From: Candidatus Phocaeicola faecipullorum
GTDB lineage: Bacteria > Bacteroidota > Bacteroidia > Bacteroidales > Bacteroidaceae
Reading direction: 5' to 3'
Assembly (NCBI GenBank): GCA_018884025.1
Contig: JAHLFB010000209.1
Location: 1-24,838, forward strand
DNA length: 24,838 nucleotides
The translations under genes were made by a program, and so were the position numbers. The notes under the pieces are model-generated. The model was not told the DNA's origin, ran no database searches, and saw only the letters and a list, made by a program, of their open reading frames with translations. Positions 14,442 to 15,322 of the stretch are shown here, one piece after another (positions within the stretch are counted from its first letter, which is position 1; each line of letters opens with the position of its first letter).

Positions 14442-14723
14442 ATGTTCACAGTCATTGGAATAATGTTCGGAGGAATTATTTTAGGCTATGCAATTAAAAA
14501 TTACCGCCTGAAATTCCTAAGCTCTATCATCACTACTCTAATTTGGGTATTACTTTTCATCCTGGGTATAGAAGTTGGAAGCAACCAGCAAATAATAAAC
14601 GGGCTGGCCACTTTGGGACTTGAAGCTATTGTCATTACTATAGCAGCCGTCCTTGGCAGTTGTGTGGCGGCATGGTTATTATGGTATGCACTATATAAAA
14701 GAAAGAAAGGAGGAAAAGCATGA
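14442..14723 (+). CDS. LysO (YbjE/DUF340) family transporter, N-terminal-equivalent small subunit
   Basis: 93 aa, about 3 TM segments. It resembles, from memory, the N-terminal third of E. coli LysO/YbjE (MF..G.I..LI.GY...). It overlaps the next ORF by 4 nt (ATGA). Confidence 0.75.
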   Translation: MFTVIGIMFGGIILGYAIKNYRLKFLSSIITTLIWVLLFILGIEVGSNQQIINGLATLGLEAIVITIAAVLGSCVAAWLLWYALYKRKKGGKA

Positions 14724-15322
14724 AAGGTAGTCTGATAATAGTAGGTTTCTTCGTGCTAGGGTGCCTGACAGGATTATACAATATAATTCCATTCAACATT
14801 GCCGAAACAGAGATAAGTTTTTATGCTTTATGCGCCTTGATGTTCTCAGTGGGGCTGAGCATAGGCAATGACCCGCAAACGATAAAGAACTTCCGGGCAT
14901 TAAACCCAAGACTGGTATTCTTACCGGTAATGACTATATTTGGCACACTGGCCGGAACAGCTCTGGCCAGTCTTGTGCTGACACACAGGACTATGGCTGA
15001 ATGTATGGCAGTAGGAAGCGGATTCGGATACTATTCACTTTCCAGCATTTTCATAACCGAATATAAAGGAGCTGAACTGGGAACCGTAGCTTTACTGTCA
15101 AATATTACAAGAGAAATCATAACTCTACTGGCTGCACCTCTACTTGTCAGATGGTTCGGCAATCTGGCTCCTATATCCTCCGGTGGAGCAACTACCATGG
15201 ATACTACATTGCCAATCATAACTAGATGCAGCGGACAGGAGTTTGTGGTCGTTTCAATCTTCCACGGATTTGTGGTTGACTTCAGCGTTCCATTCCTGGT
15301 TACTTTTTTCTGTTCAATCTAA
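14720..15322 (+). CDS. LysO (YbjE/DUF340) family transporter, C-terminal-equivalent large subunit
   Basis: 200 aa. The blocks [43 protein letters not shown] and [18 protein letters not shown] parallel the C-terminal two thirds of E. coli LysO as I recall it. Confidence 0.85.

What the first reader, a model, noticed from the sequence alone, without database searches (positions are those of the whole stretch)
14442..15322. A split LysO (YbjE/DUF340) amino-acid-exporter-family transporter sits in the middle of a PUL
Two ORFs (93 aa and 200 aa) overlap by ATGA. Together they correspond to the single E. coli LysO/YbjE lysine-exporter polypeptide of about 299 aa. The split falls in what would be the central cytoplasmic loop: ...YKRKKGGKA* / [11 protein letters not shown]....

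They lie between the two GH2 genes, with gaps of 44 and 11 bp, so they are almost certainly co-transcribed with the glycosidases. They are the only inner-membrane proteins in the operon. No MFS or other sugar permease is present.

A basic-amino-acid-exporter family inside a glycan-utilisation operon is unexpected. It suggests either a new substrate for the family (a sugar, amino sugar or glyco-amino acid) or detoxification of a lysine-like product.
Basis: partly seen in the sequence, partly recalled or inferred. Interest (0 to 1): 0.6.

Follow-up and report, generated by a model that had tools for sequence, protein, structure and literature searches.

The report
Two-piece LysO transporter inside glycan locus
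The two small membrane genes are a genuine, naturally two-piece member of the LysO lysine-exporter family that sits at the head of the glycosidase genes of a widely conserved but uncharacterised Bacteroidales sugar-harvesting locus; the split is already known, and the link to the locus is real, but its meaning is untested.

Summary
ORFs 14442-14723 (93 aa) and 14720-15322 (200 aa) overlap by ATGA. Both match Pfam PF03956, and together they align along the whole of E. coli LysO, keeping its essential E233/D261 pair.

The split is not a frameshift. The genome has three such pairs, about 170 related loci are split the same way, and the split form is already published as LysA/LysB (PMC8396727).

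The new part is the context. The order SusC-SusD-LysOs-LysOL-GH2-GH63 recurs in about 45 of 80 Bacteroides/Phocaeicola species. It also recurs in three other Bacteroidales families with different flanks, and in 66 of 71 informative metagenome contigs.

The pair is nevertheless a resident gene. PUL-less relatives keep it at the same core-genome site with the same promoter, and PUL-linked and PUL-less copies are intermixed in its tree.

In most species it has its own promoter and heads a LysO-GH2-GH63 unit. In this window that promoter is absent, so read-through from GH2a is inferred.

Function is unproven. My best guess is proton-coupled efflux of a lysine-like by-product, possibly hydroxylysine. 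This scan flagged the same arrangement before on other DNA.

The parts
14442..14723 (+). LysOs: small subunit (93 aa, three hydrophobic segments, K/R-rich C-terminal tail), equivalent to E. coli LysO residues 1-82 and to the published 'LysA' piece
   Evidence: PMC8396727 describes LysA as 3H-Nout.
14720..15322 (+). LysOL: large subunit (200 aa), covering the whole PF03956 domain, equivalent to LysO residues 108-299 and to the published 'LysB' piece. It carries E132 and D161 (= LysO E233 and D261).
14708..14723 (+). Subunit junction: AGGAGG 6 nt before the ATG of LysOL, and the ATGA stop/start overlap (translational coupling)
   Evidence: The 4-nt overlap occurs in 55 of 67 related loci and an SD-like motif in 56 of 67.
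14398..14441 (+). 44-bp gap between GH2a and LysOs. It lacks the hairpin and the TAnnTTTG -7 box that precede LysOs in most other species.
15334..18495 (+). GH2b: LacZ-type beta-galactosidase with a signal peptide. It is the gene that follows the LysO pair in all linked loci.
18521..20431 (+). GH63b: YgjK-type alpha-glucosidase with a lipoprotein-type signal. The catalytic Asp and Glu of YgjK are conserved.
   Evidence: PMC13671375 names D501 and E727 as the YgjK catalytic residues.
9082..14397 (+). GH63a plus GH2a: a second, diverged enzyme pair (about 40% identical to the b pair). It is found upstream of the LysO pair only in this genome, in B. heparinolyticus and in some metagenome contigs.
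4311..8978 (+). SusC/SusD pair of the locus. It is of a different lineage from the SusC/D of most LysO-linked PULs (36% and 30% identity).
2455..4062 (+). TPR-domain regulator gene of the locus, conserved at 45-55% identity in the linked PULs
   Evidence: The earlier scan note e1-2451787 was not re-tested here.
2211..2277 (-). FopS-family sRNA gene. Together with the roughly 120 bp that follow it, it marks the left edge of what this window has in excess of its PUL-less relatives, where it lies directly upstream of LysOs.

Best explanation
The two ORFs encode the two subunits of one LysO-family (PF03956, CPA/AT superfamily) secondary transporter. The small subunit is a 3-helix scaffold piece. 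The large subunit is a 5-helix piece with two re-entrant segments; it carries the transport site and the invariant Glu/Asp pair that E. coli LysO needs for proton-coupled export of thialysine and lysine. The subunits are made by coupled translation (ATGA overlap, SD-like motif).

Shown:
- The pair is a long-standing resident gene of Bacteroidaceae chromosomes. In most species it lies between rnhB and hppA/suf.
- It has its own conserved promoter and is kept when the PUL is absent.
- The same pair is the first cistron of the enzyme half of a conserved, uncharacterised PUL: SusR-like regulator, SusC, SusD, then LysOs-LysOL-GH2-GH63.
- This order is preserved in other Bacteroidales families with different flanks.

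Inferred: in this window the pair's own promoter is missing and a second GH63-GH2 pair abuts it. It is therefore most likely transcribed by read-through with the glycosidases.

Inferred, not shown: the coupling is functional. The PUL takes up a Glc(alpha)-Gal(beta)-X glycoconjugate, and the periplasmic GH63 and GH2 remove the two sugars. The LysO pair then handles the cationic, lysine-like remainder, most plausibly by exporting it from the cytoplasm as a safety valve. Hydroxylysine from collagen-type Glc-Gal-Hyl is the leading candidate.
For: Family and mechanism:
- PF03956 hits for both ORFs.
- Co-linear alignment to E. coli LysO, with E233 and D261 conserved. Both residues are invariant in 95 sequences.
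- PMC8498466 shows that these residues are essential for Thl/H+ antiport and Lys export.
- PMC8396727 describes the LysA+LysB dimer form.

Native split:
- Three split pairs in the genome.
- 80 of 80 genome loci are split.
- The ATGA overlap occurs in 55 of 67 loci.

Conserved unit:
- About 45 of 80 Bacteroides/Phocaeicola species carry REG-SusC-SusD-LysOs-LysOL-GH2b-GH63b.
- The same order occurs in three other families without the rnhB/hppA/suf flanks.
- 66 of 71 informative metagenome contigs with a GH63b orthologue have the pair immediately upstream of GH2b.
- The median LysOL-to-GH2b gap is 20 bp.

Resident gene:
- The flanks are identical with and without the PUL.
- The same -7 box and leader occur in PUL-less loci.

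Specific to this window: no -7 box or hairpin in the 44-bp gap.

Hint of functional coupling: LysO evolved faster in the PUL-less lineage in 10 of 10 contrasts, and in 9 of 10 the excess was larger than for the flanking core genes.

Parallel: the E. coli ebgA-ebgC-ygjI-ygjJ-ygjK cluster also joins a GH2, a GH63 and an amino-acid-permease-family transporter.
Against:
- The pair persists without the PUL in many lineages. At least 7 state changes are forced on its tree and 20 are needed by parsimony. PUL-linked and PUL-less copies are not separable by sequence. Its core function therefore cannot depend on the PUL.
- Diverged GH63-GH2 PULs in other families work without any LysO gene (L107-L109).
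- Five metagenome contigs have GH63b orthologues without the pair.
- The enzymes carry signal peptides, so glucose and galactose are released in the periplasm. No dedicated inner-membrane sugar carrier is needed.
- The linkage could be kept merely because GH2b-GH63b use the LysO promoter.
- The rate contrast is small (0.001-0.09 substitutions per site) and the contrasts are not all independent.
- The Glc(alpha1-2)Gal preference of YgjK and the hydroxylysine idea rest on my own knowledge and on unchecked scan notes.
- I found no paper on this PUL.
Confidence: 0.5

Rival explanations
1. Regulatory hitch-hiking only. The LysO pair is an ordinary housekeeping lysine/thialysine exporter. The GH2-GH63 genes were appended to its transcription unit and SusC/SusD were placed upstream. 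Linkage persists because the glycosidases depend on the LysO promoter and on read-through, with no biochemical connection between transporter and glycan.
For: - The pair's own conserved promoter and leader are present with or without the PUL.
- A hairpin follows susD in most species.
- The pair is retained at the same core-genome site in PUL-less relatives.
- There is no sequence separation by PUL state.
- Two further paralogous pairs lie in housekeeping contexts.
- In one family a fused LysO lies next to dapF, a lysine-biosynthesis gene.
- An earlier scan follow-up (e1-5201203) reached the same view.
Against: - The gene order is conserved across several families at 50-57% enzyme identity and in different flanks. 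This usually signals functional coupling.
- LysO evolves faster once the PUL is lost.
- E. coli independently links GH2 and GH63 with an amino-acid-type permease.
Confidence: 0.3
2. The pair is the PUL's inner-membrane importer. It takes up the de-glycosylated or partly glycosylated amino-acid remainder, such as Gal-Hyl, Hyl or a short glycopeptide, or another cationic product, for use as a nutrient.
For: - It is the only transporter in the operon.
- CPA/AT families include importers as well as exporters (PMC8396727).
- In the E. coli analogue the transporter YgjI belongs to the APC amino-acid permease family.
Against: - The only characterised member is an exporter and antiporter (PMC8498466).
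- The genome (86% complete) shows no co-located kinase plus class-III aminotransferase that could catabolise hydroxylysine. The APH and Aminotran_3 hits lie on different contigs.
- The pair is retained without the PUL.
Confidence: 0.12
3. The pair has switched to a neutral sugar or amino-sugar substrate (glucose, galactose or Glc-Gal disaccharide), replacing the MFS permease seen in other PULs.
For: No sugar permease lies in the locus, and the pair sits between glycosidase genes.
Against: - The Glu/Asp pair required for cationic substrate/H+ coupling is invariant.
- PUL-linked and PUL-less orthologues are about 80-95% identical and interleaved in the tree, so no neofunctionalised clade exists.
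- Many PULs lack a dedicated permease.
Confidence: 0.05
4. Sequencing frameshift in a fused gene.
For: A fused 305-aa form does exist in one other Bacteroidales family (L103) and in E. coli.
Against: - The same ATGA junction occurs in 55 of 67 related loci from independent assemblies.
- The genome has three split paralogues.
- The split form is published (PMC8396727).
Confidence: 0.01

Closest known systems
E. coli LysO (YbjE), the L-lysine/thialysine exporter; TCDB LysO family; Pfam PF03956
   Same: - Co-linear homology over the whole length: 28% identity for the N-terminal piece and 35% for the C-terminal piece.
- The essential E233 and D261 are conserved.
- The positive-inside loop lies at the break point.
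   Different: - Two polypeptides instead of one.
- The gene lies inside a SusC/SusD glycan locus rather than standing alone.
- The substrate and the direction of transport are untested.
Split LysA + LysB form of the Lys_export family (CPAfold; Sudha et al. 2021, PMC8396727)
   Same: - A small 3-helix protein plus a larger 5-helix, two-re-entrant protein encoded side by side.
- This is the form seen here and in nearly all Bacteroidales loci examined.
   Different: That paper gives a structural and evolutionary classification only. It reports no genomic context and no link to glycan utilisation.
E. coli ebgR-ebgA-ebgC-ygjI-ygjJ-ygjK cluster
   Same: - A LacZ-type GH2 beta-galactosidase.
- A YgjK-type GH63 alpha-glucosidase; GH63a and GH63b are 27-29% identical to YgjK and keep its catalytic Asp and Glu.
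- A transporter from an amino-acid transporter family, all in one cluster.
   Different: - The transporter is an APC-family permease (YgjI), not a LysO homologue.
- There is no SusC/SusD.
- EbgA is not annotated as secreted.
- The natural substrate is also unknown.
Canonical Bacteroides PULs (Sus paradigm) with a SusR-like regulator
   Same: - A SusC/SusD pair.
- A membrane regulator.
- Secreted exo-glycosidases.
- A hairpin after susD in most species.
   Different: - An amino-acid-exporter-family transporter heads the enzyme genes.
- Only two glycosidase families are present.
- The substrate is not identified in any paper I could find.

Membership tests
LysO / Lys_export (PF03956) | Significant match to the family HMM above the curated cut-off | tested here: met
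   The large ORF scores 254.8 bits and the small ORF 39.5 bits, against a cut-off of 23.8.
LysO / Lys_export (PF03956) | Conserved intramembrane acidic pair (E233 and D261 of E. coli LysO) required for function | tested here: met
   One search shows E132 and D161 aligned to these residues. One search shows both invariant in 95 sequences. The requirement comes from PMC8498466.
LysO / Lys_export (PF03956) | Eight TM segments, N-out/C-out, with two re-entrant segments in the C-terminal part | tested here: inconclusive
   Crude hydropathy gives three hydrophobic segments in the small ORF and four to five in the large one, plus a K/R-rich tail at the break. This is consistent with the topology, but no structure was predicted.
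LysO / Lys_export (PF03956) | Exports L-lysine or thialysine in exchange for protons | not testable with these tools
   This needs transport or resistance assays.
Split LysA/LysB architecture | Adjacent genes for a roughly 90-aa 3-helix protein and a roughly 200-aa protein that together cover the fused protein | tested here: met
   The architecture is conserved in about 170 loci.
Split LysA/LysB architecture | The two proteins form a complex | not testable with these tools
   No multimer prediction was available. It is inferred only from the fused homologues (E. coli, and L103) and from the translational coupling.
Polysaccharide utilisation locus (PUL) | Adjacent SusC-like and SusD-like genes with co-oriented CAZyme genes and a regulator | tested here: met
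Polysaccharide utilisation locus (PUL) | The LysO pair is co-transcribed and co-regulated with the PUL genes | tested here: inconclusive
   - Gaps of 44 and 11 bp, with no hairpin or -7 box, favour read-through in this window.
- In other species the pair has its own promoter after a hairpin.
- RNA-seq was unavailable.
ebg/ygjK-type GH2 + GH63 cluster | LacZ-type GH2 plus YgjK-type GH63 with conserved catalytic residues | tested here: met
   - best PDB hits are beta-galactosidases, E 4e-244.
- homology to YgjK.
- The WESGxD Asp and the ENY Glu are aligned.
ebg/ygjK-type GH2 + GH63 cluster | Transporter homologous to YgjI (APC family) | tested here: not met
   One search places YgjI in AA_permease_2. 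The window's transporter is PF03956. The two are analogous, not homologous.

The most novel reading that the evidence does not exclude
The conserved unit SusC-SusD-LysO-GH2-GH63 is a system for harvesting the sugars of collagen-type Glc(alpha1-2)Gal(beta1-O)-hydroxylysine glycopeptides, or another Glc-Gal-amino-acid conjugate. GH63 and GH2 strip the disaccharide. The LysO pair moves the lysine analogue hydroxylysine across the inner membrane, either as efflux of a toxic by-product or as uptake. This would give the LysO family a physiological substrate. By analogy, it would also give the long-mysterious E. coli ebg-ygjI-ygjK cluster a natural role.
Probability: 0.2. Interest if true: 0.8.

Novelty: new member of a known kind. 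Interest (0 to 1): 0.42.

Why it matters
The physiological purpose of amino-acid exporters such as LysO is still debated, and this PUL has no assigned substrate, although it is present in many dominant human-gut Bacteroides and Phocaeicola species. A transporter of a basic-amino-acid family that heads the glycosidase operon of that PUL gives a concrete, testable lead. The glycan may be a glyco-amino acid, with collagen-type Glc-Gal-hydroxylysine as the obvious candidate. In that case the transporter would deal with the amino-acid remainder.

If instead the link is only regulatory, the locus is a clean example of how a PUL can be built around, and lost from around, a resident housekeeping gene. 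It would also be a warning against reading function from PUL membership.

Tried and rejected
- **Literature.** I found no paper linking LysO/DUF340 or GH63+GH2 to a Bacteroides PUL.
- **Riboswitch or other RNA element upstream of LysO pairs.** None was found in the window or in 8 related loci; only FopS sRNAs and tRNAs appeared.
- **FopS next to LysO in PUL-less relatives as a PUL remnant.** Rejected, because FopS sRNAs act in trans on many PULs and are not PUL-adjacent by rule (PMC11697453).
- **Sigma-70-type promoter scan.** It is uninformative for Bacteroides, so I used the TAnnTTTG -7 motif instead.
- **Rooting the LysO tree with E. coli.** The branch is very long and the root placement unreliable, so only unrooted counts of state changes are used.
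- **Metagenome scan for distant GH63b loci.** It returned only close human-gut orthologues (63-70% identity). It therefore gives a redundant, close-range reciprocal count, not independent lineages.
- **Hydroxylysine catabolic genes (APH-type kinase next to a class-III aminotransferase) in the genome.** No co-located pair was found.
- **Structure prediction of the heterodimer.** Not attempted, because no multimer mode is available and the fused homologue's locus was not of an admissible origin.
- **Frameshift artefact.** Rejected on the comparative evidence.

Full report
**1. Observation.**
The window has ORFs at 14442-14723 (93 aa) and 14720-15322 (200 aa) on the + strand. They overlap by ATGA, and AGGAGG lies 6 nt before the second ATG. 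The gaps to the flanking GH2 genes are 44 and 11 bp.

Both ORFs match Pfam PF03956 (Lys_export). The large one covers the whole 190-position model (E 5.5e-76). The small one matches model positions 2-80 (E 5.7e-10), so it is homologous to the first part of the domain itself.

I fetched E. coli K-12 lysO from NC_000913. The small ORF aligns to LysO residues 1-82 and the large ORF to residues 108-299. The break therefore falls in LysO residues 83-107, after the third helix. The small protein ends in a K/R-rich tail, as expected for a cytoplasmic loop.

**2. Not an artefact, and not new as an architecture.**
- The genome (a 289-contig assembly, 86% complete) has three such pairs. The other two lie next to phoH/purC-type and enolase/SulP genes.
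- All 80 Bacteroides/Phocaeicola loci retrieved with the large subunit have the small gene directly upstream. The overlap is the same 4 nt in 55 of 67 loci where both ORFs were called, and an SD-like motif is present in 56 of 67.
- Six loci from other Bacteroidales families are split as well.
- One family has a fused 305-aa gene (L103), as does E. coli.
- The literature already describes the family as existing in a fused form ('LysAB', 8H-2RH-Nout) and a two-protein form (LysA, 3H-Nout, plus LysB, 5H-2RH-Nin). See PMC8396727.

**3. Family hallmarks.**
Dubey et al. (PMC8498466) showed that E233 and D261 of LysO are indispensable for thialysine/H+ antiport and lysine export. They align with E132 and D161 of the large subunit. 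Both are invariant in all 94 Bacteroidales sequences I aligned, and in E. coli. This argues for a cationic, lysine-like substrate and against a switch to neutral sugars.

**4. The locus.**
Pfam annotation gives this order:
- a TPR regulator (2455-4062)
- SusC (4311-7409)
- SusD (7431-8978)
- GH63a (9082-11133)
- GH2a (11146-14397)
- the LysO pair
- GH2b (15334-18495)
- GH63b (18521-20431)
- then, convergent, an M13 peptidase and an ORF that an earlier scan note names ABC-F (not checked here).

All four enzymes have signal peptides. GH2b is a LacZ-type beta-galactosidase. GH63a and GH63b are full-length homologues of E. coli YgjK with its catalytic Asp and Glu conserved (residues per PMC13671375).

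**5. Is the pair part of the PUL?**

*Evidence for.*
- In about 45 of the 80 species the order is regulator-SusC-SusD-LysOs-LysOL-GH2b-GH63b. These include P. vulgatus ATCC 8482, P. coprocola, B. intestinalis, B. cellulosilyticus, B. pyogenes and B. heparinolyticus.
- In an even sample of 150 genera of the order, GH63b-like genes occurred in nine.
- Among those nine, the four with orthologue-level similarity whose upstream flank could be read all have LysO in the cluster. A fifth, L106, ends at a contig edge.
- Three of these, from different families, show the identical order SusC-SusD-LysOs-LysOL-GH2-GH63 without the Bacteroides flanking genes. The fourth has the fused LysO three genes away.
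- A metagenome scan with a GH63b alignment gave 66 of 71 informative contigs with the pair immediately upstream of GH2b. These are mostly redundant human-gut samples.
- The median LysOL-to-GH2b gap is 20 bp.

*Evidence against a dedicated role.*
- Relatives lacking the PUL keep the pair at exactly the same site. In Bacteroides/Phocaeicola the flanks are rnhB, corA and iPGM on one side and hppA, ybjQ and sufSDC on the other, with or without the PUL.
- In the window's own clade, a FopS sRNA gene plus about 120 bp (window 2205-2385) lies directly upstream of LysOs, and the M13 gene lies directly downstream. Compared with those relatives, the window has two extra blocks on either side of the pair: about 2400-14440 and 15326-20707.
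- In a tree of the concatenated subunits, PUL-linked and PUL-less copies are interleaved. At least 7 changes are forced by well-supported branches, and 20 are needed by parsimony. The window's pair nests among PUL-less relatives and is 95% identical to one of them.
- Diverged GH63-GH2 PULs in three other families have no LysO.
- LysO homologues are present in 33 of 151 sampled genera, mostly unlinked.

**6. Transcription signals.**
- In 38 of 40 linked loci, the susD-LysOs gap (median 110 bp) contains a Bacteroides -7 box (TAnnTTTG) about 20-25 nt before the LysOs ATG; in the gaps I printed, a GC-rich hairpin with a T-run also precedes the box.
- The same box and leader occur in 22 of 26 PUL-less loci.
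- In most species, therefore, the pair has its own promoter and heads a LysOs-LysOL-GH2b-GH63b unit, and the glycosidases are appended to it.
- The window differs. The 44-bp gap after GH2a has neither hairpin nor -7 box, and the nearest + strand box is 610 bp upstream inside GH2a.
- No + strand terminator-like hairpin lies between GH63a and GH63b other than two weak intragenic ones.
- Read-through from the upstream PUL genes is therefore the most likely source of LysO mRNA here.
- This is inference.

**7. A hint of functional coupling.**
I took each of ten PUL-less loci that share core flanking genes with PUL-bearing relatives and ran relative-rate contrasts against PUL-bearing outgroups.
- LysO had accumulated more change in the PUL-less lineage in 10 of 10 cases.
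- In 9 of 10 the excess was larger than for the flanking core genes, which were near zero.
- The same direction is seen in path lengths on the tree.
- The effects are small, the contrasts are not all independent, and the ORFs remain intact. I treat this as suggestive only.

**8. What it most likely does.**
- Firm: a two-subunit LysO-family transporter with an intact proton/cation-coupling site, translationally coupled and resident in the core genome. It is the leading cistron of the enzyme half of a conserved uncharacterised PUL.
- Inferred: the PUL targets a Glc(alpha)-Gal(beta)-X conjugate, from its YgjK-type GH63 plus LacZ-type GH2.
- From my own knowledge, not checked in a paper here: YgjK binds and acts on Glc(alpha1-2)Gal, the disaccharide of collagen hydroxylysine.
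- E. coli links ebgAC (GH2) and ygjK (GH63) with ygjI, an APC amino-acid-family permease. Two unrelated lineages thus pair these enzymes with an amino-acid-type transporter.
- The genome shows no co-located kinase/aminotransferase pair of the kind that earlier scan notes proposed for hydroxylysine catabolism in flavobacteria. This fits discarding the aglycone rather than burning it.
- My best reading is that the sugars are used and the LysO pair exports the lysine-like remainder. The pair also retains a general safety-valve role, which explains its survival without the PUL.
- I put functional coupling of some kind at about 0.5 and pure regulatory hitch-hiking at about 0.3. Within the 0.5, I put an importer role at about 0.12 and a sugar substrate at about 0.05. 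The specific hydroxylysine scenario, whether by export or uptake, I put at about 0.2.

**9. Novelty.**
- The split is published, and the family membership is ordinary.
- The PUL linkage is not in any paper I could find.
- This scan has flagged the same arrangement several times on other DNA. One earlier follow-up called the pair a resident housekeeping gene. My data support 'resident' but also show conservation of the unit across families, which that verdict underplays.
- I class it as a new member of a known kind, with an unexplained conserved context of moderate interest.

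Noticed in passing
window 2211-2277 (-): Rfam match to the FopS sRNA family (RF04319; 78 bits against a gathering score of 56). The same element lies directly upstream of LysOs in PUL-less relatives (L017 9460-9526). Another copy lies about 85 nt beyond the 3' end of the genome's third LysO pair (L010 4658-4725). 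Two of the three LysO pairs thus have a FopS gene within about 200 bp.
   Followed up: partly
window 2400-14440 versus 15000-24838: The upstream half of the locus (regulator, SusC, SusD, GH63a, GH2a) has 34-39% GC. The LysO large subunit, GH2b, GH63b and the resident flank (M13 peptidase gene and the next ORF, named ABC-F in an earlier scan note) have 40-44% GC. The SusC/SusD here are only 36% and 30% identical to those of most LysO-linked PULs, but 66% and 59% identical to those of B. heparinolyticus. The upstream half looks like a separately acquired cassette.
   Followed up: partly
L103 (G002:C60) 14177-17566: One Bacteroidales family has a fused 305-aa LysO gene. It is followed by dapF (diaminopimelate epimerase), a GNAT acetyltransferase and yceG, then GH2b-GH63b and a transposase. 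No SusC/SusD is nearby. This links LysO with lysine biosynthesis in that lineage.
   Followed up: partly
L130-L133 and L196 (metagenome contigs): GH63b orthologues (64-68% identity) occur without the LysO pair and without SusC/SusD. In L132 and L133, GH2b is also missing although the neighbours are the same as in L130.
   Followed up: no
window 556-1185: A serine recombinase (resolvase/invertase with HTH_7) lies at the low-GC left end of the contig, upstream of a 172-aa ORF with no Pfam match.
   Followed up: no
L091 and L118 (E. coli K-12): The E. coli ebgR-ebgA-ebgC-ygjI-ygjJ-ygjK cluster joins GH2, GH63 and an APC-family permease. YgjJ (356 aa) has no Pfam match.
   Followed up: partly
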